This document shows, piece after piece, positions 1 to 50,507 of a stretch of 64,000 nucleotides of DNA (its first letter is position 1; every line of letters starts with the position of its first letter). The stretch is from Yuukianura sp. NJ FZ-2021 (taxonomy: Eukaryota). Where the stretch lies: positions 8,804,001 through 8,868,000 of the forward strand of contig CM102290.1 in assembly GCA_046563655.1 (NCBI GenBank), in the 5' to 3' direction. The notes beneath the pieces are model-generated. The model searched no databases and had not been told where the DNA came from. It saw only the letters and a list, made by a program, of their open reading frames with translations. A program made the position numbers and the translations under genes.

Positions 1-3000
1 AGAAAGTTCACTTCTTCAAAAAACAGTTTCTTTTTTTCGAACCGGCGAAACTGTTCGGTCGAACAATCGTGAAACGCTTACAAGCAGAAAAAATACCAAA
101 AAACAATTTTTAGCGTTTTTTTTATTGTCCCTACCTACTTGAGTTGCCATTTGACAAATTTGGAATTTTGATTTACTGTAAAAATTATGTTACCAAAAAA
201 AAATTGATTAATGCAACCTACAAACATTTCTACAATTACGTCTTCCTATTTTCAAAAAATTTGACAAGGCCAAGACTCTCCAAAAATGATAATTTCTTCA
301 ACAAATCGCAGTGTATATTTTTGGTTCCTGCATCGAGTGAGCAAATTCCAGATTTAATGTTTCACTTTACACTAAACTTAAATTCTTCAGCAGAAGATCA
401 ATTACTGACGATTACTAAGTTGGCGTTTAATTAGGAACGAGACAGATTTATTTTTTCTTAGTGACCTCTGACCTCGCTCCCTCGTCTCCACCCACAAAGA
501 AAGTTCTAAGAAAAGGCCGCCCGCCTCCGGATCATTTCTAGCGAGAAATTCTTAGAAAATTAACTTCTGTTGAACAGAGGGCCTTAAATGGTGCTAAGTT
601 ATTCAATAGCACGTAGCAACACTTGCGACCTCCTCTTCACAAAATCCGCCTGGCCTTAAACCAAATCATTTTCAAATTACTTAACTGTCTTCCACTTCAG
701 TTAATGTTTTCATCTTCTTCTGTTTGACATTGCTACTGAAACACCTTTGTCTTCCTTCACCTCCATTCATTTCTCCAACAACAGAACTTTTAAACATCTT
801 TATGGTCCATCATAAACTTGTTTTTTCTCTTTAACATTAAATCTGATTGTTTTGATTTCTAATCAAAAACTGAAAAAAATACCCGTAAAACACGAACCGG
901 TTCGAATGTGCTTTTAGTCAACTCTTGCTTCACATCAACCAGCGTTTACGTTTTTTTTTTGACGAGGTTACAACTCTTCTAATTTCGTCTAAATAATTTA
1001 GTCTTCAAAAATTTTAAGCGATTAAAGGTGTTTTAAATCACAACGCACATTTTATTAATTTGTGTTGTCTTTCGGCATAGTACGTTTGAATAATTATCAT
1101 TTATAATCACACAAGCAGCAGTGAAAACATTTCCAGTTTATTAAAGTTTACAAGCTGAGAAAATACGTGGCTGAAACGTTGTTTATTTGAAAAAATGAAC
1201 AAAATCCGATCATTTTGTTTTAAATTCCATTTTTTTTAGAATCGAAGTTTGAACTACGGGGAACAAGTGAGACTATTGGAAGGAAGCCTTTGTTTTGGTT
1301 GTTCCACTTAACCTTATTCCCTTATCGATTACAATGGGATGTTTTTGTCGCCAAATCCATTTTGTCCTTTTAGCCAAACGGCGTCACAACTTTTCTTTCT
1401 TAATGCAACCTTCTTTGCCCATTAGACAAAATTTAAATATTCAAAAAATTTGAAAACGAAAAAGAAAATTTTCACCCAAAATACTTTTCCGTTTCCAATA
1501 CCAAATGAAGAAGAAACTTCATCGAAAAGCTCCTACAAATTTATTAAAAAATAATTTTTTTTCAAAAGGAGTTAAAATGTTTCGTGTTTTCATTTTGTGA
1601 ATTATTTCCAGAGGCTTTGGGAAAGAATTATGGGCAAAGCCTCTGACATTGCTAAATTGACTTTTCCTATTACTAAAAGGGTCCATTTTCAAATGAGCCG
1701 ACAAATTCGGCAGAGATTTGGAGGGACTTCGTTAAAGCCCTTAAGTGACCCTGTTCCTGGTCACTTCTTGTAAAACTTGTTTGAAACAATGAGAGTGCGG
1801 TTAAACTGGGCAATTGCCCTTCCGAGAAAACTAAACACTTTTTGAAAACTAACATTTCAGACTTTCTTCGCCTACTCTTGCGTCCCTTAGCGTTAGTGGC
1901 AAAGGGAGGGTCAAGGGTCCACAGATACCCCCTATCATCCATCCTCTGCTAGACGCGACGACAAAGGACAATTGTTTTCCAACCAATAAAATGAAATATG
2001 AGTTGAGGCAATTAGGCAGGAGGACAAACTAGCCGGAGTCCAAACTTTTGTTTCCAAAGGCCTCTTCTAAGGGCTAGTCCGCAGTGGCGCCCAGACGCAA
2101 ATGGATTCAAAGTTAAGCTTAAGCTAAAAGACGAAGTGGACCAGAAATCTAATTCCCACTTGTATGTGAAACGCCGGCAATTTGTAAACGGAAACTAACA
2201 AAACTTAAAGAAAAAGTATATTTATAAAAAGTTTAAATACGAATATGATTTGTTTCCTCAAAGTCCAGCTTCGGGTAGGTCCATGCAGAACAGAATCGGA
2301 ATTCTTAAGGGATGTATGTACTTCCCCTGGCGCTGGAGCACTTAGGACCCTGGAACTGCCATTATTTTAGGAGTACTTGACATCTCCTTAAAGTGTTGAC
2401 AGTTTTAGTGTCCATTACGATGATGTGGTCCAGTCTTTAAAGAGATAAGGGGTCTTCCCTTCAAGTGACCCTAAAATCTCACTTGAGTAACTCCAGAAGC
2501 CTTTTGTTTTCCCCCTAATACCCCTTTCTCGGTTGCAATTAGGAAGCTTAAACTGTTGTGCCAAAACAGTTGGTAGGCGGCAACAATTAAAGAGTCTTCA
2601 AATTAAACTTTCAAGGTACAATGGCGTCACTCAACATTTTGCCTCTAGTACAAAAAAAAAATTTCAAAACTACCTAATAAAGTTGTTGTATTTTGTGTAT
2701 TTTTTAAAAAACGAAATTATTTCAAAATGAAAACAATAATGAATTTTGTAACTACAAGAAAATTTTGTAGATGCAAAGTTGACCCCAATGGACAACATGC
2801 TGGAGGCATGGAGTGACGCTGCTGCAGCAGAATTAAGACAAGCCCAACTAGTAGTGATTTATAAAAACGTGGGAGACTTGAAGGGACGCAGGGTCAGTTA
2901 GAAGACCGTGACGCATTAATATGACTGGGGTCACCCAATGACCCGTAGAACAGAGATTTGACTTTGGTGTAGGGAAGTGTGCAGTGGTTGGTTTAAGGGC

Positions 3001-6000: not shown

Positions 6001-6474
6001 ATGAGGATTTTTTAAGTTTTGGCGTAGATCCAGACTGGATGTGGGCACTTATGCTGGAAGTGCTCTGCTGAAAAGCAAGTTTGTTGCCAAAGTACTTTCT
6101 AAGATCCAAGGGGTGCAGAACTGTATAATTCTTGAGACGATCTTGAGCCAAGCATCTGTCAAGTCATTACTGCAACACGATCATTGTCACAACCAGAAAA
6201 AATGGACCAAAAGGTGGGATCAAAATTATACATGCCTTTCCACGAAGATTGTGAAAAGGCTACACGCGCCTTTGCAAGACTCCTGGTCCAGAAAAACACT
6301 TTTGAAAGAAAGTGAGAGAAAAGCTGAAAGCGTAGCAGTGGACAATGAAATTATGAACTGACTTTGCAATTTCCAAGGGACTGAATAAGGCAAGGGACTC
6401 CAAGTCCTCCCTGTCACATTCATCAGTGTGACCTGAGTCCTTGGTTTCTTAAGGTAAACAATTAAAGTTGAACT

Positions 6475-6492
6475 GGGAGTCAATTGACTCCC
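6475..6492. repeat. perfect 18-bp palindrome GGGAGTCAATTGACTCCC
   Basis: Sequence equals its own reverse complement; partial copies follow at 6497-6505 and 6517-6528. Confidence 0.9.
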
Positions 6493-9400
6493 TTCTAGTC
6501 AATTGCTCAATGGAATTCAATTGACTCCGAAGTTCCATTCTTCAACTTTTAGAAGTTTTACCTGAAGTTTGACTAAACAGAGACTACAATACAACGGCAA
6601 TTGAAGAACCATTTGTACAACTTGTGGGGTAGCGTAGCACATCGCACCCAGTCACTCCATTTTCTCAAACGTTCCTCCATGGAAAAAAAAGTTTGTGGAG
6701 AATGAGTTTTTCTAAGGACAGATTCAACGGTTCATTAAATTTTGTAGAAAAGATCCCTTCTTTTTTCGTAATTTGAATTTTTGTATTCTAAAATTTCGGA
6801 TAGGTACTGAAAATTGAGAAAATGTGATTAAATATCGCGTTAATTGAAAATAAGAAAATAATTGAAAAAGACAGTAGCTGTAAAAATTTTTTGGTTCTTC
6901 AAATAAAAAAAAACAGCAAGAATTGAAATTTTTAAAAATTAAAAATTTGAAAGTTAGGTGCCCTTTTCCGATTTTTTTTGGAATGCTTGAAGTTTGTTTT
7001 TGAGCGTTTTTACCTAAAAGTTGTTCAAACTTTAAACCGTTCAAAGGAAAACTCAGTTCATAAGTCGCTTTCTTCCTTCTGAGAAAATTTAATTGAGCGA
7101 GAGAACCGTGCCATTTTGGGTTATTGTGCACTTCAGGTAACCTTCAGTCAATTTTCTGTATTGACTCACCTTTTGACCCATTGTGCAGAGTCAATTGTCG
7201 TTGCAGTTCCCTCTGTTCCAAGTGCAATGGTATGGGAGGAACTAAACACTAAGCTCCAAAGACATTTTCAAAGGACCACTTTTTAAAAAGAAAATCACAA
7301 AATTTCAATTGGAAAACTATAGTCAAGCGCAGCATGATGGCCACCTTTGGAGGACCCTTGAGCATCATCCCAAGGGACTCTTGAGTTCATCAACAAATGA
7401 TCACTCTCTAGGAATTCGCTCCGGAGTCATTCACAAGACCGAAGCATCTGTCACCAAGGGTACTGGCAACCTTTGACCTGTGAATCTTTAAAGCTAACTT
7501 TGAAAAAAGTTTGGAAACACTGCTGGTTAGGTGAACAATAATTACAGACGGAGTTTAACAAAGTTTGCTCTCTGTTTAAGATCAAAATTTGTTAACCTGG
7601 ACTTAACTTTCTCCAATTTGGAGTTTGTTTATTCAAATCCTGGAAGCGTGAATCTGATTTTTTTGTTACTTTGAATGCGTCCGAGTTCAGAAAAATACAA
7701 ATTTGTTGCCGTCAAATTGTAAACCGATTTTGAAAGAAACTCAAACTTTGGTTACGCCATGATTGAAGAGGTAACCTCAAAAGCGTTTTGTCCAGAAAAA
7801 CCCGTAGCATTCTCCTCCTAAGTTTTGTTTACTCAAAAACCTGGCAAATCAATCTTGCGACATTGTGCGAGCTGGGGCGCATGTGCACAAATGGACAATG
7901 GTGGTTTTTTGACAATGAAGGACGAGTCTTCCTTGGAACTGACTTTGATTCTTCGCTAGCATTTGACACTGAATGGCAAAAGGAGGACTTGTACAATTGA
8001 AATCTAGGGCTCGAGCCTTGTTCCTGAATAAGAATAATACACTCAAGAGGTCCTCGACAAGACTTTCATTATTGCCACGAAGGACCACCGGGGTACTTAC
8101 ATTGATTGACGACCTAGCCAAGATTCATAGGCACCCAAGGGTCCCTGCTTCCAGGAACCTCTGGACACCTTTCCCTGAGCCTAATGAATTCTAATATATG
8201 GGAAATTAATGAATGGAGTTGGTCGGGCCGAAAAAACTTTCATTGTGAAACACGTTTGTGGTTCTGATGCTCCAGATTTGTGATGTTAAATAATCTTGAA
8301 GTACCTTCTGTTTTATAGTGTTTCCCATATCCTAATCCACTCAATCAGATCCCTTAAATGTGTGGAACAACAGTCTTTTCCCATTGTTGAACCACTTCCA
8401 TAACAATCAGAGAGTGAGGAAGGGCTCTCTCAAGGGCCTCAACCAGAAGGGCTTCTTTTCCAGTGTAGTTTCACATACATAAGTTGAAATCGGGTCCCTT
8501 TGAATTCCCTTTGTGGCTCTTGAGAAAACAACTTGAGCTCATCAAGGAATTAAACAAACAATGGTGTCAATGAGGATAGGCAACTTCAAGGGAATTACTA
8601 TCAAGGGCCCACTGAAAGACTGGGTTCAATGAATACAGTTTAACGGATTCACATCATTTATCATTGTAAAAAAATCAGTTAAAAAATCACTCTGATTTTT
8701 TTAGTACTGTAAACTGATTTTATTAGTAAAAAAAACTAAAACGGGATGATATATTGAACAAAATCGATGCGAATAATCTACAAGTATACTCCGTGAATTG
8801 TTCAGCAAAATGTGAAATTTTTTGCAGGCGTCAGTCATTGCTGAAAAACTGCAACAGTAAAATGTGGAATAAAATACAAAAATTTTGTAGAAAATCAAGA
8901 GAAGTTGTAAGTGAACAAGAAGATGTTGTTAAAGCTAAACTGAAAATGTTCTGAACGTGCGTTGAAAGGTGTTTCTTCCGCTTGAAACAGTTGGTTGAAA
9001 TGGTTCGTGGTAAAACAGGATGTTTGAATTAGTGGATTTTGAAGAGACCACATACGAATAAATTGATGGAGGGAGGGGACTGGGCTAATTTTGAATTGAA
9101 TTAAATGAGTCCCAGGAGAGAGGCCTCTGTGCCTTCAAGTGTCCTTGGACAATGGGCCACAGTAATTCAGGGATCCTCCCCATGGTTGGTCCTCTTCCAA
9201 AGGGCCACTTAAGGCTCCAAGTGGTCTCTCAAGGGCCTTCTTCCTAATATCTCCTAATGCAACTATTACCATGTTTTATTCTTAGTTACGCCATTCCCTT
9301 CCCATCAACCTCAGTTCCATTATGGCCAAAGCCAAGGCCTGTCAGACCCAATTATCACCATATTCACCCGGATTCCTCATCGATTTCACGCTATCCACCC

Positions 9401-12400
9401 ATGCACTTTATCATCTTCCAAGGGCTTCGTTGGGGGAAATGCAGGGGCCCTTGGACAGCCAGCCCTTAATCACTTCCTTAAGCGTTGGAAATTTGTCCAG
9501 TTAGTTTACCTTTGGCATAAGCAGGATGCTTTTGCCCGTAGAGGCCAAGTCAGTCTTCCCTGACATTTTAAAAAATTGATGAAGTTTGGCTCGTATCCAA
9601 AATGGATAACTGACAATTGGGTCCAATCAGTAGGAAACATGGAGATTGTGTACTAAATTTTAGGACACAAATTGCTACTGCATTTTAAATGACCTTTGGC
9701 TTTTTGAGTAATTTTGGTTTTTGAAAACCCTCCTTACTCCCAATCGTTTCCAATTTTTTGTTGTCCAAATTATACCTCATTATGCTCAAGTTATTTTTTT
9801 GGGAAAATACTCAAAAAAGTCTGAGGCACAACATAAATTGGCCATTTAAGTTTATTGGAACCAGTAATAATAGTTTACCATTTGTTAAATTTCATAAACA
9901 AACACGGAAGCCATTTTAGCTACAAGCAGTAAAGCCAAAATGAAAAACCAATTTCCCGAATTCAAAAAAAAACTGGGCTTTTCCTAGCGTATTTAACTCT
10001 CCGTATTTGCAGCAGCCGAAATTGGAGTCCAATTAATCTGAATTATACAGAGACGAACAAGCTACTGGAAAACATAAATTAGGCCCAATTGAATTTAAAG
10101 ATACATAAATTGTCTTAGTTTTTCAAAATGAGCTGAATGTCTGAAATTAGTAAACGAGTTACTGGGAAATTCACTTGTCAAAGCGCTTCCAGCGATGCAT
10201 GAAATAAGATCCAGGAAGGATCCTACGTATGTTTAATAAATGACACATGTAAGCTTGGTTGAAGGAACGTTTCAACAAGAGTCCTTCACCCGACAAGCAT
10301 ATCCTGGACTTAGTAAGAACTACGGCCTTTTTGAAAGATTAGCGTTAAGCAACTTCTAACTAACCATATAAGTCTTCAAAGGTCAAAGGACTAATTGGAC
10401 TCAGCACTCATCTTCATCCTGTCAAATCAACACAAATCACAACGTCCATAAAGTACCTAATCTGCTTTTCAACTTTGATCCACTCCAAGTTTCAACTCAT
10501 TAGTTTTCAAAAACTTTATAAAAAAAATTAGGTTTAAAAATTTCAAAAACTTGAAAAAAAAAACAAGTTTCTTTTTGTGTAGTCTTCTTGATGGGAGGGC
10601 CATATGCGAGGATTTACGGTAACCCATAAATGCCTTCGAGTAAAAAAGTGAAAAGTGAAAAGCTTATGCCTCGAGTGCGGATGGATTGAGATTGTAATTG
10701 GCCAAAAGTCCACGGAAGAAATTAGAAGGCACCTAATTGTGAGGTGCGTGAGAATTTGTGAATTTTCCTGGAAGGATCCCTTATACCCCTAGAAAGTATG
10801 TATTGAGATATTAAGTTCATATGACATGACTTGAGGTATGTAGACACTCTTTGGACTTACGAGTTCCGACTTAAGGTCTCTCTCCACTTGCACGGAACAC
10901 AAAAATTACTTTGTTCTGGAAGAGAGCAGCTTGTCAAAATTTGAACAGCCTTCTCCGCTCCCAGTTCCTTGCATGCGATCCGATCCAATCTCCTCTGCTA
11001 CACACGGACTTACTCTTTTTTTCAAAAAAGTTTCTTAGAACAACTTGCAGTTTGCCATAGCATTTGGTAGGCACACAATCCAGGAAAGACCTTAACCCTC
11101 AGCCTCTGTAATCAACTTAATAAAATTGTTAACGTTAAAGTCAATTTTGGAAAAGGTGCGAGCAACACCACAAAATGCGTTTGACGTTATGGCGGTCCGT
11201 AACATGAACATTCCGAGAAGGTTAGGTTTTTTTTTTAAATTTTGACGGTTAGGTTGGACAAGCTTTCAGAACCAACCTGACTAATGACAGGTTATATAAA
11301 AATGGAGTTAGTCAATTTCAGAGGCGTGTAATTGCTTAATTAGGATTTTAAAACAAAACAGAATATGTTTTTAAAGAATTTATGTTCTACTTGATGTTGA
11401 TGCCTTTTGAAATGTAAATAGTGGAACACAGTTTTTAAATTGGTTTCCCAAGTTAACAAATTAGTGGCAATTACAGTTCTAGTTCAACCATGTCATGTCG
11501 CTTCAATGAATGTGCAAAACGGCGTTAAACCAGTTTTGAAGAAAAAAGCAGCAAAGAAAAAAGTTTAAAAAAAAGTTTTCAGAATTTTCAGAATAAAAGG
11601 ATAAAGCAGTTGCAGACTTAACACTTTTTTGAAAATATCATGTTAAGGATCGCCTTTCGTGCTGGAGAAAATTAGTGATTAAAATTAAAAGTGGAGTTTT
11701 GGAGGGAGAGTAATTGCAGAAAGTTTTTGAATATTTGCCCCATAATTTGTAAGTTACGTTTTCTCATGTGCTCTCATTTCAAAACGTGTCAGAACAATTA
11801 AGGTCTTTTTCCGATTATTAAACGGAACTCGGAGTTCTACTAAGGAGTGGAGGTAGAAATGACTTCATTTGCCTTCCCAAGACTTCCGTGGTCAAATGGA
11901 ACTATTCCTTTGCGTGCTTTCTCCTCAGACGTTCGTCTACTAAAAGTCACAATTAATTTTCAAAAACTGGAGCGCGGGACCTGGAGGGTTCTAAACGTAT
12001 CACTGCGGGGGTACGAAGGAGAGGTAGACTGTAGACTCAGAGCGCGGAATTTGAAACGATCATGTTTAGAAAACAAGTCATGGAGTCCTGAAGGTTCCTG
12101 TTGTTTCTCCTCGTCACAATTGAAAGGTACTAATTACATTTCACGCAATGGCTAATTCCACTCCCCTTCATTTCATTATTCCAAGATTTCTAGAAGGAGC
12201 CTTTACATTTCAAAAAAAACAGTTCTTAGGTTCCGCAGGTTTAGAAAAGGAGCACGGGAAAACTAAAGCCTCAAATTGAGATATTCACCTAACGATAGCT
12301 CTTGGTAATTTTTTTTAAATGTTCAAATTAATTTTTACAATTACAGTTCAAATTACAGTTATACATAGTAACGAGAAAAAAATGAAACTTTGAGTTTGCG

Positions 12401-23731: not shown

Positions 23732-23758
23732 ATGGAAAGTAGACTACTGTCAACTTAA
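23732..23758 (+). other. upstream ORF (MESRLLST*) in the Msx leader, in frame with the main CDS
   Basis: aacATGG start context, 8 codons, then TAA at 23756-23758; same frame as ATG 23804. Assumes transcription starts upstream of it. Confidence 0.5.
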
Positions 23759-23803
23759 CTTTTGCCAACTCTCAAAGTCAACGGAATCTCACGACCCGGC
23801 GTA

Positions 23804-29800: not shown

Positions 29801-32394
29801 TTAAACAGAAAAGAAGGTTTTTGCTTTTTTCTACTAAATTATTTTTATGACACTGTCCGTGACGTGGTTTAAACTGGTTGGAGTTTGAGCAAAGGAGCCT
29901 AATTAATGTTTACAATTTGTTAGGTTTATGTTATTAAATTATTTGAAAGTGGGGTGTGTAAAATGTGAAATTTTAAACAAAATGTTGATTTCCAAATTGC
30001 TTTCAGAAGGAATCCTAACGCCCAGGATGCCCGGTCCTCCCGTTCGGTGTCAACTGCGGAAGCACAAACCGAATCGAAAACCGCGGACTCCGTTTACAAC
30101 TCAACAGTTACTAGCACTAGAGAAAAAGTTCAGAGAAAAACAGTATTTATCCATTGCGGAACGAGCCGAATTTTCATCCTCATTGAATCTCACCGAAACG
30201 CAGGTAAGATCACACTTGTTAATGAATTTGAATTATAATTAAATTTAGAATTACTAACAATAGTGTATTACTAAAAATTAAAAAGTGTCTGTTAGGAGTA
30301 GCGAAATGAAAATACGCCTGTCTCCAGGTAAGAATCTTTTGGAGAAACGTAAGGGTCCCCCAAAATTGAAAAATTGCTTCAACTTCCCTCCTTTATTAAG
30401 TGTTCACTGTTGAAGTTTTTGGTTATAAGGCTACCTGCATGTTTAAATTTTCCAAACCTAGGCTATGCACCCTGTCTCTCTGTCAGTAGGGCCTGTAGAG
30501 CACGAAAACTTGTTTTTGTTTTGGATCCGATTGATTGTTGAGCGTCGACTTTTGACTTTGGAAGAGAACGGAGGGAAGATTAGAATGAAAAGTGGAGTTG
30601 GTTGATAAATGACCTCTGTCCAGACCCAACACCAACACAGACCAAAGGTCAAGGAAGCACTTTAAATTAATGGGATCCCTTCATCACAAACCATCTTCAG
30701 CTCCTCAATGTAAATTTACATTTGGACTTGAGGAACCTATTGCATCTTGGAACGTCTGAACCCTGCTAGAGACATGCGCATGACACCTTCAACTTTTTCG
30801 AAATCAGAAGACGTGAGAGGTCAATTATGTTGACAGATTTGTTAATAAGAGGATTCAGTTACTCCCATCACACAAGACGTGTTTAGAAACTTAAATCCTG
30901 CCACTGTGTCAGTGACAAGCAAATTGACTTTTTTTTAAACTAAAGTTGTCAAACCAAAAAAAGTGAGACGCTTCTCCAAGAATGAGAATACGTTGACATT
31001 TTGACGTTTTTAAACCTTGTATGTCTACAAGAGCCCTTAGAAAGCTAATGGAGGGTCCCTTGAATAATTAAGGCCTCTTTGGTATGAAGACAGAAGTTGG
31101 TTGTTGACGTTGGAGAAAGTCCAAAGAAAGTTTAGGAGGCGTCGGTCTACGTTGTTGGCCAATGCACAAAACAAGAAATATGTCACCGTCGAGTATTTGG
31201 ACAGCTAATAATTCCATCAGTATTCATAATCGATTCCACTACAAAAGTCCAATTCCTTAGCACAACAATTACATGATAGTTCTTTTCTAGCAACCTTTCA
31301 CTGTAAAAGACCAGTTCGCAAAGACATTCCTTCCGATCGATACACTCTACCGGCCATTCCTGTACACAATTGATATCGCCCAAGCCTCAACCATTGTCTA
31401 TTCCTTTGAAATATTTTAAAAAGCTCCTTTCGGTTAATTTATCTTCACATTATTGGAAATCGGCTTTAAGTTAAATCTTAATTGAAATTGAAAAGTTTGC
31501 TGGAATAAGAAAGTATGATGGTAGTCCTGATGAGAAGTTGAAATAAGAGATCACTTCTACAGCAGCAGAGAAATAAAAATCGAACAGTGTTACTACTTTT
31601 ACTAAGATTTGAACAGATTTACGATTTCTTAGGAATGGTAGTAGGAGAAGGCCAACTTAAAAGTTACAGCTATTAATTCACCTTTCATCTTGGCTTCCTT
31701 GGTGTCCTTGTCATTCGCTGTTTTTTGTACGACGTGACGCTGCTGACACGTAGGGACCTGGAGACGCAGCGCAGAAGAAAGATCATCAGGCTCTGCATTC
31801 TTCTGCTGAGGTTTACTTATCTTCATCTCGCTTCCCTAGACTGGTCTTTTGTAATTTTGTATAGAAGACTCTTCTATAGAAATCCCACTTTTTAGGCAGT
31901 AAAAACATTCCTGATTGAATCCAAAGTGAATCGAAGTGAATTAAAAAGGAATCGAAACTGGTGAAATTTTTTTTATTATTTGAAAAATAAAACCAGGGAT
32001 TTATTAAATATTTGACTTGATATGAGAATATTACTCAAAATTTTTAAGAGAAAGAAGACGCTTTTGTTTTAAAATTGGTTGATGAACATGTATAATTTAT
32101 TTCAAAATTTTAAATCAAACATTGTTTGGGTTTCTTTTGCAAAGTTTTGTTTTTATTTTTTAGGTAAAAATTTGGTTCCAAAATCGTCGAGCCAAAGCCA
32201 AAAGACTTCAGGAAGCGGAAATTGAGAAGCTACGGCTTGCAGCAGCTCGTCCATTACTTCCGCCCTCACTCGGTGGGCTTCTTCCGCCGGTGGGTCCAGG
32301 AACCCTCATGAACCACCACCACTCACTCCTCGCTCGATCGGCCCACCTCAATGCAGCATTCAGCCTCAACAACCTCCTCAATCCCAAGATGTAG
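23804..32394 (+). CDS. Msx: Msx (msh/Drop) NK-class homeobox transcription factor, 411 aa; exons 23804-24435, 27081-27256, 30007-30203, 32164-32394
   Basis: Exons 3+4 give [75 protein letters not shown], the diagnostic Msx homeodomain and flanks. Exon 1 carries the eh1 motif FSVASLL. All introns are GT-AG with matching phases (2,1,0); total 1236 nt ending in TAG. The start could be ATG 23804 or 23810. Confidence 0.95.
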
Positions 32395-32423
32395 GTCAGA
32401 GAGGTCACGGAGGTCACTGACCT
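32393..32423. promoter_or_regulatory. cluster of four perfect nuclear-receptor half-sites (DR3-DR3-IR1)
   Basis: AGGTCA gag AGGTCA cgg AGGTCA c TGACCT read directly; function inferred. Confidence 0.5.
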
Positions 32424-32650
32424 CGTGGAGGATGACTGGTAACAACTGAATCCAAGTATTACACTACACTACCAGAAGAACCATGTAATTTATATCCAAA
32501 CTCAGGATCTAACTACTTTTAGTATAATTACAAACTACTTAATTATTACGTGAGACATGCTTTATTTCCCAACTTATCAAATCAACCATAGTATCATTTT
32601 GAAGTATTCAACTAATGACAACTGGATCGAAACGATCAATTCAGTTCTTC

Positions 32651-32656
32651 AATAAA
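32651..32656 (+). terminator. candidate polyadenylation signal of Msx
   Basis: AATAAA about 260 nt after the Msx stop codon. Confidence 0.4.
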
Positions 32657-35600: not shown

Positions 35601-38600
35601 CCAGATAAGCACTACAACTACGGCGCTAAAAAACCACGCAACAAAGCAGCCAAATACAATAAAATTCAAAATTTATATTCTAGCGCCATTCTTGCTACGT
35701 CCATTCACAGCTTACCATATCGGGGAAAAACGAACGAAGTACTTCAAAAATATCCTGTCACACTTTCAAAATTCCACAAAAGTATAGTTTTTTAAGCATT
35801 CTCATTTCCCTGATTGGGGGAGTGGGGTGGATAACAGTATCTGGAGTTTAGGGTGGCAATTGACCTCGTTTGACCTTGGGTCATCTTAGGACTTGGCTTA
35901 ACTTTTAGCAGCAAAGCCAATAGCCATCATAAACTTTATGTTCATTTTTTTAAAGGAAACATTAAAGTTTAGTAAATAATTAAACCAAAACAATGAAAAA
36001 TTATCTTTGAATTGTTTTGTGCCACTTAATATTTACCTTCTCAACTACTTTTTAACTACTTCCAACCAGAGAAGCATGCAGAGTCAATCACATGTTTAAA
36101 TTTGAGAGCTTCCTGTCATGCACACCTTTTCGAATGCAATATTTTTTAAATACGTACACGTCAACGAAAAGGTGAAGGCTAACCCTGTGTATTGCGTTTT
36201 GAGCTGAAATTTGGAGAAGGTTATAATTATTTCATATTCTGTTTTAAATTAAGGTAGGTTGGAAGTGAGTGACACGAAATTCAAACAAAATTAAGAACAA
36301 TTCACCTGAGACATGTTTTGTGTTGGTTCAAAATTTAAAGAAAATGAGCTTGGGGAGTATAAACGTTGAACCTTTCTCAACCTGTTTCTCCGTGTGTTGG
36401 ACTCCCATAAATTATACATTACGACAAACGAGTTAATTTTGCAATAAGTACTTTTGCAAAACACACCATTAATCTCAAGCCTTCATCGGAAGCTAACTAC
36501 TTTAGTACAGCTCTCAATCCAATGCCAATTTCGATTGGTTTTTATATATGGTATGCATGGTAAGTCTTGCCAAAAAAAAGCAGATGAAGAAGTGTGAGTT
36601 AAGAGAGAATCCTACGAAAAATCCACACGTTCCATTGCTCTCTTTATCACTTCCAACCATCACCCTCTTTATGAAAATCTAGAGTTCAAATGTTGGCACC
36701 TATTTTTAGGAAAACTTCCGTTTTTCACTCTTTTTTTGAATAGGAAGTGTCGGATGTAGTGGCGCGAAGAATTAAAGAAATCGCAGGGATTTCAGCTCTG
36801 AACTTTTACCGAGCTAGTGTGACTCTTCTACCGAAAGATATGGATGCTGATGACATCTTCAGTTGTGGGGTAGGACAGAATTCTCTTGGAGATTCAAAAG
36901 CCTCCCCGGAAATCATATGAAAGTGAATTGAGGCGTAAAGTGGCACTGGTCCTAATCATTGGATCGCCTTCTACCGCCTATTTTTCGGTCGGTTTCAAAT
37001 CCGCCCGGTTTCCTATGAGGGAGTTTGCTTAACAGGGAGAGGGAAGCAAAGAAAGCGGAAAAAGCAAAGACGCTGCTAAAGAGAAGCAAGGCACAGCCTC
37101 TGCTGAACTTCCTCATCTGACATGACCGTGATTCGGAGGGGAGACGAGCTTCTAAACGATTTCCGATGATGAGGCGTTTCCATGAAGTCTTGTTAAAGTG
37201 TCCTCCATCAGTCTTACACTTCCAATTCAAAGCAAAATGGAGTTTTACTCATCTTCCGATTTCAAACAACGCATCTTTCACAACAAGACTTCCACGGCAT
37301 CACATACTACAAAACGCTTTTAGATCTTGTCCTGGGAGCAAATTACACACATTCTGCAAGACAAATAGCTGAAAGTACAAAAATACTAATCCGATGATGC
37401 AAGAATTTTATAAAACTTAAGATTTTGTCAAATTTTGATAAAATTGTGAAATTTAGCAAATTAAGGGGCGTGGTAGGTCGTTTCCTGAGTAGATGCGTAG
37501 TGTTGAAGGGGAAAGCCCTTGGAGAATTGCCACAATGAAATTAGGTCCAGAAGTAAATGAGAATAGGGGAGAAAGTGAGAATAATTTCCGAAAGTGCTCA
37601 ACGTGCAGAGCAGTGCTGCCTGGGGAAAGGACATAGTAGGAAGAAGTGTTTTTATTTGGAAAGTAAGTACAAAGGATTGGCTAAGGAGGATTTCTGGAGG
37701 ATCCCGTCGTCCTGGAGACTGGTCGTCGGAGCTTAAGGTCGTCTGGTTGCAGTCGTCGGTGGGATGGGGAGTGAAAGTGAGTGAAAGTGGAGGTCTCCTT
37801 CCCATCTATAAATTGGATATCAAAGCTCGTGACAAGGAGGAAATTGGACTTTTTCCCTTGAACAGACCCAACGCCCGGGAAAAGACAGGAAATGAGCCCC
37901 AAACGCCTTTTTAAACAAATTCTTATCTGGACGTGTTCCCCCTTCATTCTTTGGAATAAGGTTAAGGATAGTACAGATCAACTCAGAGTCTAAACACCAA
38001 TTCAGCCCTTGTGCACTCCACCAAACCACCCACTAAACACTACTTCACCTCCCAATTCCTAATTCAAACTTTGCTGCCACTTTCCCCAGCAAGTGAAAGC
38101 AATAACTTTGCAACGAAACAGTCTCAAATGTTGGGTCAAACGACGTAGCCTTAAATCTGGAAATGTTGCTTTTCATCAAATTAGATCACTCATTTCTTTG
38201 ACACCGATGATTTTCAAATACTACTCTAATTTCTCTAATCTTTAGCAATTTTTTTTGTAATAAAGATAAATTGTTGTTAAAAATTTACGAAGTCTTTAGT
38301 CGACTATGAGCGTAGTTTTGTTGAATTCTTAAATACTTAACCTAAATGTAATTAGTTTCAAGGTCTAAAAGGATTTAACCTGGTTTTTATTTTGTAAAAG
38401 GAATTCAGCTTGCTGAAATGAGCGACTTACAAATAAACGAAGTAATTTTGTGAGAAAATTATTTAATTATTAAGCTGAATTATAACCAATTGAGATTGGT
38501 CTGATTACGACCGTCCCAAAAACTGTCTTTCTTACAATAAACATCTCTGGTTTGCAGTCGAAATTTGCCCTTTGTCGGCCATTGTTGAATTGACCAAGAA

Positions 38601-38663
38601 GAAATGTCAAAGACGCAGGAGTAGACGAACCGTTGCGTCGTATATCTCATGGACTCGTGAGCA

Positions 38664-38691
38664 CTTGATGGCGATAATTACTGCCATCAAG
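38664..38691. repeat. 28-bp dyad CTTGATGGC-GA-TAATTA-CT-GCCATCAAG
   Basis: 9-bp perfect inverted arms around a centred TAATTA; 24 of 28 positions are symmetric. Confidence 0.85.
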
Positions 38692-41600
38692 GAGGCACAG
38701 AGCAGAGAAGTCATGTCGTCACGGACGACGGGATTTGAAGGCGGAGGTGGGCCAACGGTTCCTGTGCTCCAATTCCGTGATTTAGCGTCTAGCGTTTAGT
38801 TTCCATTTAAAAGTGTTTATTAATGGTTAAGTTACAATGGGAGATGGGGGCGGGGGACTTGAGTCCTTTGACATCTGAATCTCAAATGGACGTGCAGATA
38901 GTCATCAGAGAGTTGCGTGGCACTTTATGACTCTTTTGGTTCAAGAGATGAAGAAGGGAGCGTGACAAAGAGTTTTTTGGAAGAGTAGAGCACTTATTAG
39001 GACCACCATTTGCCTCCCTTATTCAGACACAATGGGAAACAATACAATTATTTTAACCACCCATGTCAACCACCATGTCTTCATTTCAAACCCAATCACG
39101 AGACACGGTCACTTGACACTTTCTCCAAACACGCTCCTCTCCATTTCCGCTTTCCCACTCTTTCAATCATGACTTGAACATTTCAAAAAAAAAATCCAAA
39201 CAAGGAGGTTCATGTCGTTCACCCGACTAAACCCATTTATGCGTTTTTCAAACAAAATTGACACCCAGGCTTAATTTTTCAGTATTATGCAATTATTTAA
39301 AAAAAATAGTTAGGTAAAGTCTAACAATACACTACATACGTTAGTAAGGTTTCTGTTGTATCGAAAATTTACAAAAATTCTACATTAGTTTTCATAAACC
39401 CTATGAGATTCATATAGGAAACTGATTCATGGTAATTCATGGTAAGCGTTAACAATACCCTAAGTATATGGAGACTGATGAAGATGTTTTGGCTGTTGGA
39501 TTCCACTTTGGTGGGCCAACATCATGCCAAGGCTCCACCATCCAGACTTCCTGGGTCCTTTATTTCCACTGAGAGACCTTAACTATAAATTTCATTAGAC
39601 TCTTTGGTGGGGATACTGTGATGATGATGATGTGGATCAAATGGGGATGAAATTGAGGCCCCCATCTCCCCATGGGGATCCCATTATTCCCCAATCAGTC
39701 TAACCCCCCGCTGACCACACCCAGCCACTCTCCAGCCCTACCCTCTAATACACTTCAACTTCAACTCATAAACACCACCAAATACTTCCAAATGGACCAT
39801 AACTGATTTCAAACCTAGCATTCAATATTTACTCACATTTTAATCAACTTCTCACAATTTTAACCAAGATTATGAAAACAAACTTTGTCAAAATTGTTCT
39901 AGTCAAGAATAATATTATACTTTGATTTCAACTGATTTGTGTTTGTGACGAGCATAATGAAGATGAAGGCACACCGGGAGGTCATTTTATTCCTTAGCAC
40001 GTCAAATACAAAGTGTTACACAGGATTGAGGCATCATCTTCGCACAAGTCAGATAATGATCTTCCAAGGAACTATAAGATCCCTGAATCAACTTCCTAAA
40101 CTTTAATCATTTTCAATTGTGAAATCATGGCTATTAACCCTCTTTATCCCGTTAAACACTAGGCAACTTCCACAACTACCATCCCTGTCCAAATCAATAT
40201 GGAAGTTACAACAAGATGATTCCTCAATTAATATCAATTCATTCACCTGTCAATTCCATCTAATCCATCTAACACTATTCAGAGTCTCTTCAAAGCTTAT
40301 AGCTGGCATATTGAACCTTGTTTGTAAAGTTCTTTGAAATTATCCAAATTCTGTAAATACATTTTGTTTTGCTTTTTCAACAAAAAAAACACCGTTCAAT
40401 TGAGTTTTGCATATAGCAGTTTTGAATAATTAATGCTTTACGTAAGTTCAATTTGAAGTCATTGCTAACCCAAAAAGTGGAAAAGTGTTTTCTAAGCTTT
40501 AAATTGACTTTTTGTCAAACTTAGTGGGAGTCTAATGGAGTTTAAATTTTAAATTGTTTAAAAACTTATGTCTTAAACCCAACTTAAGTAGAGGCGTATG
40601 TCACCGATCCCCAAATCAATTGAAATATAAAACTATTTCCGAAGGTCAAACTCCGTTTAAATTGACCAGGGGTGAGCAAGAGATGAAGTGATCTCGTTGG
40701 AGGCTGGAGGAGAAGATAGGCGGGAATGCGGGAGATATGAATCGTTAATTAGCGACATTTTGAATTCCTGGCTGAAGAGAAGCTAATCATGGAGTTGGAT
40801 TAAGTGTCACCTGGGAAATGGACTTGGAACACAGGAGGACTTAAGGGGGTGGGACTGATTAAGGACTGACACACAGGGATCAAAGGTATTTTGAAATGGA
40901 GATGATCTTTCAAAGTGAACCGCCCTGCTGAACGAAGTGGATGTTTGGACTGAGCAGTGAATTTAACGAGGTTCGGAGGCTGCAGAGGGATTTGTAGTCG
41001 AAGTTTCAGACGTTTTCAGACACTTTTGGACGGTGACGTTTGGATATTTCTAGGTCCTGTGTGTCCGCATGAATACTGAGCCTTTTGTAAGCGTCCACGA
41101 GAGTCAGGGAATGAAGTGAGAGGGGCTAAGGGTCACTGGGGCCCTTTGAGTCTCTTGCAGGGCTCAATCTGGTCCAGAGATCTTGAGAGGTTCCTTGGTC
41201 AGGTGTTAAGACCCAATTAGTAGTGAAATATTGCTCTGGATCAAGTGGCGACAAAATCTAAAAATGCTACCGGTTTTACCAAGTCTACTCCTCCTGTTCT
41301 TGTTCAAATACAAATTCCACAACGGAGACATTTCTCCAGAAGCTTTTTCTAGTTACGATCAGGGAGACTTACATTGAAGAAGTTTGTTGAATTGATTAGG
41401 GTGGATAACCACTTTTAGAACGGGAATACAATAAATCCTGGATGTGCTCCAGTAAAAGACCTCCGAGCTTCTACGGTCTTGGCTCTGAATTTAAATTGCT
41501 CCATTATAGAAATTACGTGTGGCCTTTTCATCTCCAAATAAGTCTCTTTGCCATTTCAAACTCTGGACAATTTTTAATTAAACCGCATTGCTACACCGCA

Positions 41601-47600: not shown

Positions 47601-50263
47601 ATGTTGTTTGATTTGATTGACCGACGATGTTGTTTTTGTTACGCGTGTTTGGCTAGAGTCAAACAATCAAGGGCTCCCTTCGGTTCAAGTCACCCTCCCT
47701 TCCAGAGATCTAGATGTCATTGAAAGTGAATCTGGCAGTACGAATAGGATTATTGCTCAAATCAATCACTGGCAACAGTCTAAAGTAAAATGTGAAAAAA
47801 CATCGCTTAAACTCCGCTTACAAAAGAAACAGTCAAATAGAAACAATATGCTTAGGCAATAAAAGTCAGATTGAAGCCTACGAGCGTCTGCTACGCACGC
47901 GTGGAGGTGCTAACTTCTTAATCCCTTGCCAAAGTCCATACTTTGCATAATTCTATTGTTGGTTTTAATATGTTAGGGGACCGTGGTTGGTAAATATTTG
48001 CAAAAGTCTATTAATACAACAATTTGGCGGTGGAAAGTATGAATTTCATTATAGTTTAAGTGTATAAAAATATTATAAAGTAGATGTGTTTGAAATTTTG
48101 TGATGTCCGTTGATTTTGGTTCCATACAAAACTTTACACGCGGAATTAATTTTTGTAGTGAAAGTAAACCAAAATAGCGACACTTTCATTTGAAGAAAAA
48201 TGAAAGCCATGATTCGTTTTTTAGGTGTAAGGAGATCCAATGGCGTCTTGGAATGGATACCAAAATGGCAGTTTGGAAATGACAACCTTAAATATTTGTA
48301 GATCGGAAGTAGTAAAGTGTGGAAATATTTTTAAAAGTGGAAGTGAAACGGGAGAGAGTGCCAAAGTTAGGTTCATCGCCGACACTTAGATGACATCTCC
48401 AAAGCCAAACAGAGTCTAATAACCTCCGACCTCTTCCGTTGCATCTCCTCCCATCTGGATTTTGACACCATTCGTTCTGTCTAAACCAACAAGAATTTAC
48501 GCCTAATTAGCCCTCTGCTGCTCCTGCACAGACTCAAAGAACTGCCAATAACTTCTAAAGTCACGAAAATACAATGAACACACTTCCCGGTTGCTTTCAC
48601 TGTCAACAATTTTAAAATTTAGTCCAGATCCAACATAAATAAAACCGAAAATCATATTTAAAATGAATTTAAAAAAAATACCATTTGTAACATTTTGGTA
48701 ATACAGAATATTAACACTCACCTCACCAGCATTGAAAAACTGTACATCTAAAGTAACAAATTCCTTAAATTTTCATGCGATGATACTACATCCAACGTTT
48801 TAAAACAAACTTGAAGGGATCAGCTACGTATGATTTTGTCAATTTGAAATTGTGTAGCCCTTGACAGATCGGTTACAAGATGATTGGTGTGTCAACTTCC
48901 TGGATCACACATGACCCCTTGTATTTTGGCAACCCTTCTAGTAGCCCCTTCATTTCCGATACCCACTCATGCTAAACAAATGAGGTTTTAACAGTAAAAA
49001 AGGCGAATCTGAGGACCAGGAATCGTAATGGTTCAAGGGCCATTGAATCCTCGCCCATTTTGATTTCGGAAATGAAGACGACACAGCCATAAGGGTATCT
49101 CCGACCCGATTTACTGTTCAAATAAATGTTTCTTTTTAAAAAGCTACTGCAACGCTTTTCTAATCACAGCAGGACCATTGGAAGGCACTATATATGCCTC
49201 TCTCTCCAAAATCCTAATCGATTTAATGGAAAAACGTTTTCAGAGACTCTGGCTATGCAAATTTCCTCTGCAAAGTTCATCTGAAACAAAGTAGCAATTT
49301 TCGACACAGAAATACCCGAAAAACCTGCGCACTTAGTAGGAGAATAAATTGAATTGAATTGAATTGAAATATCCAAAACTTCCAAGTTTCTAAGGAACTT
49401 GTTAGATAATAATTTTGGAAAAGGAAAAGCGAACGACATATTATACAAAACGAACCGAAAAGTTAGGACATCATCGGATTATGAATGCTAAGATGCTTAC
49501 ATTTTCCCAACATAAGTTGTAGTAAAGTAGTAGCCTTGTTTAAATTTCATACAGTAGAGGACTTAGAGCACATCCCTTTGATCATTTCATTTCAGTTTTT
49601 AAACCGAAGTTGGTTTACAAAATGAAACAAGTTATAGCGTCCTTAATTTCTATTCCGCCTTTTGAAAATGAGTCAACTGTTTGAAAAGAAAAGTTCTTGT
49701 TTGATAATTAATCAAACTCGACGAATTTTATACATTCAAATTACTTTCGCAACAAAATAAATACTTGAGTACTTGAAAATTAACTAAACGCTTAAAGAAT
49801 CTTGTTCAATTTAGACAATGCAATTCGAAAAACTGGAATAGAACTTGGTAGAAGCGAGGAATATGACAATGGTTTTTTTTTAAAGCAATTTTAAAATCAT
49901 TTTTCAAACCGACACGACAGCCATCTACAAAGGATGAATCGAATTTGAACAATCCCTGGCACGAAAACGCTACGCTACATTACTCCAAGCAGCGAATGGT
50001 GGCTCTCTCGACTTGGAAAAATTTTTGAACCACGCTTAAGCCTGGGTGAAAGCTCAAAGCATAATTAAACTGTGCCTACAATTTCAAAATCTATTCCAAT
50101 TTGATACCTGTAATTTGTACTACTGATTCATTGAATTTAGAGTGTTGGTTTGAAGACAAAATGTAACTGAAACTTAAATAAAGGCATTAATTTAGTTTCA
50201 AATTAAAACAATATTGAAACAAAAATAAACGAGGAAGCCAACTCCTGTTCAATACATCAAAGA

Positions 50264-50507
50264 TTTCAATAACCTCCACCAACGCATTCCGTGTAAGCTG
50301 TCTGACTCGAAATTATGGCTCATGGTGTACATTTTATAGTAAAAGCAGCGTACAATTTATGAAACCTTAGTTTGTAAGGACACAAGTGTCTAATCTGTCT
50401 GCCAAAGTAAGATTGCATCTTATTTATTGAATTGAATTATTTCTCATATTTCATCCACTTCTGCTTTTCTTCTACCGTTGCTCTTTGCCATACAAAACTT
50501 TCTCTTT
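50264..50507. repeat. diverged ~240-bp direct repeat, copy 1 (partner at 54225-54462)
   Basis: Colinear shared blocks: tttcaataa, caacgcat, tgtaagctgt, aaattatgg, gtacattttatag, gcatcttatttattgaatt, tgcttttcttct, tacaaaactttc. Confidence 0.85.

What the first reader, a model, noticed from the sequence alone, without database searches (positions are those of the whole stretch)
400..49200. Recurring ~1 kb compositional-palindrome architecture of non-coding DNA (sawtooth GC skew between A/T-tract spacers)
Seen: non-coding DNA is divided every ~0.5-1.3 kb by 100-400 bp A/T-tract spacers (e.g. near 34.3, 35.2, 36.0, 37.4, 38.3, 39.3, 39.9, 40.4, 41.7, 42.7, 43.7, 44.7, 45.5, 46.5 kb). Between spacers the + strand repeatedly starts G-rich and flips to C-rich: 8960-9100 vs 9240-9420; 19450-19560 vs 19590-19730; 28075-28210 vs 28220-28380; 37460-37795 vs 37990-38090; 38700-39000 vs 39000-39180; 39600-39657 vs 39660-39850; 48300-48370 vs 48390-48600; again at 58120-58380 vs 58380-58470. 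I could not align arms to each other, so the symmetry looks compositional rather than a repeat family, and its polarity is the same upstream of, inside and downstream of Msx, so it does not simply follow transcription direction. Established: a C-rich to G-rich jump is the skew signature of bidirectional replication origins, and poly(dA:dT) tracts exclude nucleosomes. Inference: each spacer may be a fixed chromatin barrier or initiation site from which a strand-asymmetric mutation or repair process acts both ways over a few nucleosomes. I cannot tell whether this has been described for this organism.
Basis: partly seen in the sequence, partly recalled or inferred. Interest (0 to 1): 0.7.

Follow-up and report, generated by a model that had tools for sequence, protein, structure and literature searches.

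The report
Mirror-symmetric G/C skew around A/T tracts
In the non-coding DNA around an animal Msx gene, runs of A or T tend to have C-rich DNA on their left and G-rich DNA on their right whichever strand is read, a real but modest pattern that resembles the footprints left where DNA copying or reading starts.

Summary
G-rich DNA precedes C-rich DNA at lags of 25-375 bp in 15 of 16 4-kb blocks. At 196 A/T tracts of 6 nt or more, the + strand switches from C-rich on the left to G-rich on the right. The switch is equal for A- and T-tracts, grows with tract length, and is about 11 SD above Markov-5 simulations.

GC content has a weak spectral peak near 1.07 kb (p=0.006). The skew itself is not periodic (p=0.89).

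The units are not repeats. All 8 named arm pairs fail to align, the window holds 2 internal repeats, depth is single-copy, and no transposon domains were found. Fifteen other eukaryotic loci show no positive switch.

The cause is unresolved. My best reading (0.4) is a two-way, strand-asymmetric process anchored at nucleosome-free A/T linkers, as reported at yeast MCM sites. Against a deamination origin, there is no T/A co-skew and no sequence-context signature.

Everything rests on one 64-kb window. I rate it a new variant of a known kind, of moderate interest.

The parts
400..49200 (.). It is non-coding apart from the three Msx exons and carries the reverse-complement-symmetric G-then-C polarity.
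   Evidence: Asymmetry positive in all six 8-kb blocks covering it. A/T-tract switch positive in 15 of 16 4-kb blocks of the whole window. No Pfam domain other than the homeodomain in ORFs >=62 aa here, apart from one below-cutoff match (Rapsyn_N, 18.4 bits against a cutoff of 23).
37460..37795 (+). G-rich arm (skew +0.47, GC 0.48).
   Evidence: profile; sequence
37990..38090 (+). C-rich arm (skew -0.75) paired with 37460-37795.
   Evidence: inverted alignment score 20 against a null of 18.6+/-2.6
38205..38355 (.). A/T-rich spacer (GC 0.24). 300-bp flanks: left -42, right +8.
38700..39000 (+). G-rich arm (skew +0.33). Sharp flip at about 38990.
39000..39180 (+). C-rich arm (skew -0.54).
39245..39395 (.). 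A/T-rich spacer (GC 0.25). Flanks: left -48, right +4.
39600..39657 (+). G-rich arm (skew +0.68). Flip at 39658.
39660..39850 (+). C-rich arm (skew -0.69). It contains one of the window's four long-loop G4-like motifs, on the minus strand at 39659-39722.
40305..40455 (.). A/T-rich spacer (GC 0.27). Flanks: left -41, right +22.
37305..37455 (.). A/T-rich spacer (GC 0.29). Flanks: left -8, right +57.
48300..48600 (+). G arm 48300-48370 (skew +0.70) and C arm 48390-48600 (skew -0.42). Flip at about 48371.
8960..9420 (+). G arm 8960-9100 (skew +0.50) and C arm 9240-9420 (skew -0.56).
19450..19730 (+). G arm 19450-19560 (skew +0.54) and C arm 19590-19730 (skew -0.65).
28075..28380 (+). G arm 28075-28210 (skew +0.25) and C arm 28220-28380 (skew -0.56), inside the first Msx intron.
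58120..58470 (+).
23759..32470 (+). Msx gene (context). Exon ORFs at 23759-24523, 29907-30242 (homeodomain positions 1-45) and from 32173 (WFQNRR end of the homeodomain).

Best explanation
The non-coding DNA is built of GC-richer blocks separated by linkers rich in A/T tracts, with a weak preferred spacing near 1.05 kb. On whichever strand runs 5'->3' away from a linker, G exceeds C for about 300 bp, then the sign reverses towards the next linker.

I read the linkers as fixed nucleosome-free sites. From them a process that treats the two strands differently runs outward both ways over one or two nucleosomes. The candidates are replication licensing or initiation, and divergent transcription initiation. 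Over evolutionary time the process leaves G>C on the outward strand, by biased mutation or repair or by selection for that skew.

Shown: the polarity, its independence of tract orientation, its dependence on tract length, its decay with distance, the single-copy non-repeat nature of the DNA, and the absence of the effect in other eukaryotic loci.

Inferred: nucleosome exclusion at the tracts (established for poly(dA:dT) in general, not measured here), which process it is, and whether mutation or selection maintains the skew.
For: - Switch at 196 A/T tracts >=6 nt: +10.3 G-C per 300 bp. It is the same for A-tracts (n=104) and T-tracts (n=92) and is positive in 15 of 16 blocks. It rises with tract length (+5.9, +10.3, +15.6, +17.1). 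Markov-5 null 0.06+/-0.93.
- The skew is largest next to the tract and fades by 300-350 bp.
- The folded profile at 62 GC minima gives G>C at 50-300 bp and C>G at 400-600 bp on the outward strand.
- The asymmetry is positive in 8 of 8 8-kb blocks, upstream of, inside and downstream of Msx.
- The statistic is not positive by construction. In 14 other eukaryotic loci with tracts the switch is negative in 10 and never exceeds +2.5.
- Published parallel: GC skew rises 5'->3' across about 5,500 MCM sites in intergenic nucleosome-free regions of yeast (PMC10680564, passages).
Against: - There is no co-directional T/A skew: r(G-C,T-A)=-0.07 at 100 bp. In the folded profile T-A reaches only z<=1.6 where G>C.
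- C depletion in the arms is uniform across contexts, with no CpG or TpC signature. Cytosine deamination, the usual cause of replication or transcription skew, is therefore not visible.
- About one site per kb is far denser than known animal origins or promoters.
- TSS-proximal skew is reported as C-biased in invertebrates (PMC3315797, Background section read). That would give the opposite sign for transcription starting at the linkers.
- Tract length and AT-rich context could not be separated.
- All evidence comes from one 64-kb window, with no chromatin or RNA data.
Confidence: 0.4

Rival explanations
1. Centre-anchored reading. The GC-richer blocks are cis-regulatory modules or initiation sites of the Msx regulatory landscape. 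Each carries a G-rich half on the 5' side of its centre on both strands. This could be the geometry reported for metazoan replication initiation sites, or divergent transcription from the block centre with the C-biased transcripts reported for invertebrates. The A/T linkers are then merely what lies between blocks.
For: - G-to-C gaps are short (median 65-206 bp) and C-to-G gaps long (241-652 bp) in 4 of 4 scoring schemes (MWU p 0.002-0.03).
- Flips at 38990, 39658, 48371 and 16745 are abrupt.
- The strongest dyads are G-to-C: 10 against 4 at z>3 with L=150, and 7 against 2 with L=250. They sit in GC-richer DNA (0.42-0.48 against 0.30-0.38).
- Mouse initiation sites have G-rich words upstream or C-rich words downstream. 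Class 3 sites lie less than 1.5 kb apart in Polycomb and bivalent domains (PMC4665008, passages).
- Invertebrate TSS skew is reported as C-biased (PMC3315797).
Against: - There are no canonical G4 motifs: 0 with loops <=7, and 4 with loops <=12 against 1.5+/-1.3 expected.
- GGG is enriched 2.5-fold in the arms, no more than composition predicts.
- At 31 GC maxima the skew is about 0 within +/-50 bp and peaks 100-250 bp away.
- CpG o/e is not raised in GC-rich blocks (0.68-0.71).
- The dependence on tract length is not predicted by this reading.
Confidence: 0.2
2. Fossil mobile elements. The units are old MITE, foldback or retroposon copies inserted into A/T-rich targets and decayed beyond alignment. 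Any family with a G-rich first half gives the same polarity in both orientations.
For: The polarity statistic is invariant to insertion orientation (reasoning). A/T-rich flanks fit the target preference or A-tails of many elements (general knowledge). Families below about 70-80% identity would escape.
Against: - Self-BLAST (word size 9, E<=1e-3) finds only 2 repeat pairs in 64 kb, neither in 400-49200.
- Depth at >=80% likeness is flat in 29 of 30 bins in four runs.
- 0 of 8 arm pairs align as inverted repeats above shuffles.
- 12 dyads fold no better than within-arm shuffles; z ran from -2.4 to +0.5, with 3 of 12 at <=-2.
- 0 transposase or RT domains in 226 ORFs.
- Tandem Repeats Finder gives only three short rows.
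- A-tracts and T-tracts give equal switches, and there is no A..T versus T..A ordering. That argues against poly-A tails.
Confidence: 0.15
3. Locus-specific texture without a dedicated process. Patchy small-scale strand bias is general in animal DNA. In this one regulatory desert the particular order of patches and A/T tracts may reflect the chance or idiosyncratic layout of regulatory sequences rather than any genome-wide mechanism.
For: - The amplitude is small, with mean skew about +/-0.06-0.10.
- Same-sign neighbours are common.
- The skew spectrum is not periodic (p=0.89), and the GC peak has only p=0.006.
- The effect is weak at 48-64 kb (0.007 and 0.047).
- Small-window strand bias is reported across animals (PMC2267173, abstract only).
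- Only one window was available.
Against: - 15 of 16 blocks are positive in two independent statistics.
- The switch is about 11 SD above Markov-5.
- There is a monotonic rise with tract length.
- An echo of the asymmetry appears at 1100-1450 bp in 8 of 8 blocks.
Confidence: 0.2

Closest known systems
GC-skew rise across MCM-bound intergenic nucleosome-free regions in S. cerevisiae (Foss et al., PMC10680564; passages read)
   Same: Skew rises from C-rich to G-rich 5'->3' across an A/T-rich nucleosome-free site. The effect is small and seen by averaging, within a few hundred bp. Sites are dense (about 5,500 in a 12-Mb genome, by their count).
   Different: Here the host is an animal and the DNA is a gene-poor regulatory desert. 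The anchor is a homopolymer tract rather than a mapped MCM site. No replication data exist. The spacing of about 1 kb is denser still.
G-rich (OGRE/G4) element upstream of metazoan replication initiation sites (Cayrou et al. 2015, PMC4665008; passages read)
   Same: G-rich words on the left and C-rich words on the right of a central point within about 250 bp. Paired sites lie less than 1.5 kb apart in Polycomb-type developmental loci.
   Different: No canonical G4 motifs occur here. The skew is a base-composition shift rather than a G-run motif. In mouse only 12% of positive origins carried both halves, by their count.
TSS-proximal GC skew: G-biased R-loop-prone CpG-island promoters in mammals (PMC3787257, abstract in listing only); C-biased in plants, fungi and invertebrates (PMC555766 abstract; PMC3315797 abstract and Background)
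   Same: A pure G/C skew without obligatory A/T skew, over a few hundred bp, that flips at a bidirectional site.
   Different: The blocks are not CpG islands. No transcripts are known. The sign fits initiation at the linkers only for the mammalian type, and initiation at block centres only for the invertebrate type.
MITE / foldback elements
   Same: Mirror-symmetric units of 0.3-1 kb flanked by A/T-rich DNA.
   Different: There are no alignable arms, no copies and no hairpin excess.

Membership tests
Replication-origin type skew switch (bacterial / yeast MCM-site type) | GC skew rises from negative to positive 5'->3' across the site | tested here: met
   +10.3 per 300 bp at 196 tracts, positive in 15 of 16 blocks.
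Replication-origin type skew switch (bacterial / yeast MCM-site type) | Co-directional T>A skew with G>C, as expected from cytosine deamination on the exposed strand | tested here: not met
   r(G-C,T-A)=-0.07. Folded T-A reaches only z<=1.6. No context signature.
Replication-origin type skew switch (bacterial / yeast MCM-site type) | Initiation, ORC or MCM binding at the site, and nucleosome depletion | not testable with these tools
   No chromatin or replication data. No whole genome is held.
OGRE/G4 metazoan origin signature | G-rich element 5' of a centre on each strand (G left, C right) | tested here: met
OGRE/G4 metazoan origin signature | G4-forming repeated G-run motif | tested here: not met
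   0 motifs with G>=3 and loops <=7. 4 with loops <=12 against 1.5+/-1.3 expected. GGG+CCC count 1082 against 1014+/-41.
CpG-island / R-loop promoter skew | GC-rich, CpG-rich island at the switch | tested here: not met
   The C-to-G switch lies in A/T-rich DNA. CpG o/e is 0.68-0.71 in GC-rich windows.
CpG-island / R-loop promoter skew | Transcription start sites at the switch | not testable with these tools
   No RNA holder is listed among the runs. This blank says nothing either way.
MITE / foldback transposon family | Alignable terminal inverted repeats or arms | tested here: not met
   0 of 8 arm pairs score above shuffles. No hairpin excess at 12 dyads.
MITE / foldback transposon family | Multiple copies in the genome | tested here: not met
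   2 repeat pairs in the window, none in the arms. Flat depth at >=80% likeness in 29 of 30 bins. Families below about 70-80% identity are not excluded.
Degenerate tandem (satellite-derived) array of ~1 kb units | Head-to-tail similarity between successive units | tested here: not met
   TRF reports only three rows, all of period 22. Self-BLAST finds no direct repeats at about 1 kb offset.

The most novel reading that the evidence does not exclude
The A/T-tract linkers form a sequence-encoded grid of two-way initiation sites, spaced about one per kilobase. They might be licensing or initiation sites used in the very fast S phases of germline-lineage embryonic cells, or sites of pervasive divergent transcription. 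Their use would have written a G>C footprint on each outward strand. If so, an animal genome would carry a readable, kilobase-scale map of where DNA synthesis or transcription has started over evolutionary time. The mechanism would not be cytosine deamination, because no T/A co-skew accompanies the G/C skew.
Probability: 0.12. Interest if true: 0.85.

Novelty: new variant of a known kind. Interest (0 to 1): 0.55.

Why it matters
Skew switches are the classical sequence-only marker of where strand-asymmetric processes start. In animals they are known only at megabase domain borders and at CpG-island promoters.

A switch anchored on poly(dA:dT) tracts, scaling with tract length and recurring about every kilobase in single-copy non-coding DNA, would link nucleosome-excluding sequence to a two-way asymmetric process at nucleosome resolution.

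If it proves genome-wide, initiation sites could be predicted from sequence alone in a poorly studied animal lineage. The absence of T/A co-skew would then call for a cause other than deamination.

If it is confined to this locus, it is a curiosity of one regulatory desert.

Tried and rejected
- Whole genome: none is held, so no genome-wide test was possible.
- Earlier notes of this scan: nothing for this genome or for these words.
- Organism identity:
  - The Atlas search on Msx exon 1 gave only weak hits (best 0.85).
  - The protein search over longer lengths found none.
  - The search over near lengths found 1 protein at 56% identity, without a name.
  - Run organisms are coded.
- RNA evidence: no RNA holder is listed. 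This says nothing on expression.
- Constraint from variants: only 40 of 251 substitutions and 12 of 69 indels were listed. Those lie in slightly AT-richer DNA (GC 0.358 against 0.385, p=0.02; indels 0.328, p=0.01). After collapsing clusters (20 events) the difference goes (p=0.38). This is inconclusive, and the listed subset is biased.
- Random flipping of fixed blocks as a null: rejected. Its null mean stayed negative (-0.03 to -0.19), so it did not remove the polarity it was meant to test. The reason emerged with the segment-flip null: the statistic is reverse-complement invariant within a flipped piece. The segment-flip null kept a negative mean too, but still gave p<=0.007 in 12 of 12 settings.
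- Hairpin or foldback idea: rejected.
- Strand-specific deamination signature (CpG, TpC): not seen.
- Ordered A-run then T-run spacers: not seen.
- Rfam gave 0 matches and tRNA scanning 0 genes.
- Known promoters in the window (Ran, Msx 5' ends): profiles were inspected. Without mapped start sites they do not settle which sign of skew follows a TSS in this organism.
- Literature:
  - Two full-text searches listed nothing describing such a switch at A/T tracts in animal non-coding DNA: 'GC skew' + intergenic + nucleosome-depleted + bidirectional, and compositional/strand asymmetry + enhancers.
  - 'GC skew' + A-tracts + nucleosome gave 0 papers.
  - 'GC skew' / nucleosome-free / poly-A tracts listed the yeast MCM-site paper used above, but nothing for animals.
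  - The term poly(dA:dT) cannot be searched by the tool.
  - Subscription journals are not covered.


Full report
WHAT THE WINDOW IS

The window is 38% G+C, with CpG o/e 0.74 and TpA o/e 0.61. It holds three recognisable genes.
- An Msx homeobox gene on the + strand. Its exon ORFs lie at 23759-24523, at 29907-30242 (homeodomain positions 1-45) and from 32173 (the WFQNRR end of the homeodomain).
- One exon of a two-pore potassium channel at 53183-53488 on the - strand (Ion_trans_2, E=6.5e-12).
- A Ran-type GTPase at 62069-62836 on the + strand (Ras family, E=6e-41).

I scanned 226 stop-to-stop ORFs of 62 aa or more: all 76 of >=85 aa, and 150 of the 165 of 62-84 aa. No other ORF reached a Pfam family cutoff; the one other listed match was below it (Rapsyn_N, 18.4 bits against 23, at 13313-13678, E=0.0024). 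No transposase or reverse transcriptase was found. Rfam and tRNA scans were empty.

Local G/C skew is about twice as variable as in order-1 to order-5 Markov simulations. The variance of G-C per 100 bp is 91.5 against 44-48.

All 8 named arm pairs have the stated skews. Of the 14 named spacers, 11 are true GC minima and 13 have more G-C on their right than on their left. Those sites were chosen by eye, so I used statistics that do not depend on that choice.

First, one polarity measure survives reverse complementation: does G-richness at x predict C-richness at x+lag better than the reverse?
- At lags of 25-375 bp the difference is +0.05 to +0.14 at 14 of 15 lags, with a mean of +0.090.
- It is positive in 8 of 8 8-kb blocks and 15 of 16 4-kb blocks (Wilcoxon p=6e-5).
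- It is unchanged with exons masked (+0.091).
- It turns negative at 650-1000 bp and positive again at 1100-1450 bp, each in 8 of 8 blocks.

Second, spacers were defined only by GC content (40 minima). The + strand is C-rich for about 250 bp to their left and G-rich for about 300 bp to their right. At 31 GC maxima the order is the reverse.

Third, spacers were defined only by homopolymer runs (196 A or T runs of 6 nt or more).
- The right flank exceeds the left by 10.3 G-C per 300 bp.
- The value is the same for A-runs (+10.2, n=104) and T-runs (+10.5, n=92).
- It is positive in 15 of 16 blocks (p=9e-5).
- It rises with run length: +5.9, +10.3, +15.6 and +17.1 for runs of >=5, 6, 7 and 8 nt.
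- Markov-5 simulations give 0.06+/-0.93.

Fourth, I checked that the statistic is not positive by construction. I applied it to the 15 of 80 eukaryotic metagenome loci around Ran relatives that were at least 4.8 kb long; the 65 shorter ones were dropped.
- Of the 14 with tracts, 10 gave a negative switch and none exceeded +2.5.
- The lag asymmetry was negative in 11 of 15 and never above +0.030.

REGULARITY

GC content has a spectral peak at 1067 bp, with a ratio of 2.9 over an AR(8) fit and p=0.006 for the maximum in the 300-4000 bp band. This is the top period in 5 of 7 overlapping 16-kb segments. The skew's own spectrum is unremarkable (p=0.89).

Distances between GC minima range from 414 to 5197 bp. 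Strongly skewed patches are followed by a patch of the same sign about as often as by one of the opposite sign. What does differ is the gap. G-to-C gaps have medians of 65-206 bp and C-to-G gaps 241-652 bp, in 4 of 4 scoring schemes (p=0.002-0.03).

The picture is a tendency to form compact G|C doublets in GC-richer DNA, separated by A/T-rich linkers with a weakly preferred pitch of about 1 kb. It is not a strict sawtooth.

WHAT IT IS NOT

It is not a repeat family.
- Self-BLAST with word size 9 finds 2 repeat pairs in 64 kb, both beyond 50 kb.
- Tandem Repeats Finder reports three short rows.
- Contigs of four public runs, laid at 80% likeness on 32500-49500, give flat single-copy depth in 29 of 30 bins. 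The exceptions are a short multi-copy piece near 49316-49368 and a repeat edge near 41669.
- Arms do not align as inverted repeats (0 of 8 above shuffles).
- Twelve flips fold no better than within-arm shuffles; z ran from -2.4 to +0.5.

Families older than about 70-80% identity cannot be excluded.

It is also not a motif effect.
- In 20.4 kb of skewed arms the composition is A .30, C .13, G .28, T .29.
- C is depleted about 0.65-fold in every neighbour context.
- GGG is enriched no more than composition predicts.
- There are no canonical G4 motifs.
- CpG is not enriched in GC-rich blocks.
- A-runs and T-runs show no preferred order.

HOW IT MOST LIKELY WORKS

The polarity means that the strand running 5'->3' away from an A/T linker is G-rich. 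Equivalently, each strand is G-rich on the 5' side of a block centre. Processes with that symmetry are two-way initiation of replication or of transcription.

I favour anchoring at the linkers (0.4), for three reasons. The skew is largest next to the tracts, it scales with tract length, and it is indifferent to tract orientation. Poly(dA:dT) excludes nucleosomes; that is established knowledge, not tested here.

The closest published case is yeast. There, GC skew rises 5'->3' across about 5,500 MCM-bound intergenic nucleosome-free regions, and this is read as a footprint of initiation (PMC10680564, passages).

Four points count against this reading.
- The usual deamination mechanism predicts T>A together with G>C, and none is seen (r=-0.07; weak z<=1.6).
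- There is no context signature.
- One site per kb is very dense.
- Invertebrate start sites are reported to be C-biased (PMC3315797, Background), which would fit initiation at block centres rather than at linkers.

That centre-anchored rival (0.2) also matches the G-upstream, C-downstream layout of mouse initiation sites, which pair at less than 1.5 kb in Polycomb domains (PMC4665008, passages). But the G4 feature that defines those elements is absent here.

Fossil transposons (0.15) and locus-specific texture (0.2) remain possible.

NOVELTY AND VERDICT

Skew switches at initiation sites are a known kind. A switch anchored on A/T tracts, dependent on tract length and free of T/A co-skew, in single-copy animal non-coding DNA was not found in four full-text searches. 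Those searches do not cover subscription journals and could not use the term poly(dA:dT).

I rate it a new variant of a known kind, with interest 0.55. It is statistically solid in this window. Its mechanism is open, and its generality is untested because no further sequence of this genome could be reached.

Noticed in passing
window 29907-30242 and 32173-32400: The Msx homeobox is split by an intron of about 1.9 kb inside helix 3, between ...LTETQ and VKIWFQNRR... (homeodomain positions 1-45 and 44-57 by Pfam).
   Followed up: partly
window 23807-24442: The acidic, His-rich first exon of Msx has a single relative (56% identity, unnamed, on an 8.6-kb contig) among 5.8 billion clustered proteins. 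The lineage seems poorly sampled.
   Followed up: partly
window 62069-62836: The Ran-type GTPase reads as one open frame of 255 codons across what looks like a short in-frame intron (between about ...SHYVDV and [10 protein letters not shown]...). The 61.5-64 kb stretch has CpG o/e 0.98, against 0.68-0.83 in the rest of the window.
   Followed up: no
window 53183-53488 (-): An exon of a two-pore-domain potassium channel (Ion_trans_2, E=6.5e-12). The rest of the gene was not traced.
   Followed up: no
window 54225-54469 and 50264-50515: A direct repeat of about 250 bp at 78% identity. It is the only sizeable repeat in the window, and both copies lie within about 3 kb of the K2P channel exon at 53183-53488.
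   Followed up: no
window 49316-49368 and about 41669-41715: Short multi-copy pieces. Summed contig depth reaches thousands at about 49347, and several contigs in all four runs run on into unlike sequence at 41669 and at 49316-49368.
   Followed up: no
window 32500-49345: One 24.8-kb contig from one of the three runs of the sample that holds the window best (X1-X3) differs from the window by 128 substitutions and 63 gaps over 16.8 kb (about 0.8%). This points to a second haplotype or strain. A run labelled as another organism shares 56% of the sampled words.
   Followed up: no
whole window: Two-tetrad G4-like motifs (four GG runs with loops <=7) number 100, against 52+/-9 in shuffles that keep local composition. 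Canonical three-tetrad motifs are absent.
   Followed up: no
L060, L037, L006, L034 (metagenome loci around Ran relatives): In gene-dense eukaryotic contigs the A/T-tract statistic is negative (for example -13.4+/-4.6 in L060). This is the opposite sign to the window. It fits the reported C-biased 5' ends and G-biased 3' ends of fungal genes.
   Followed up: partly
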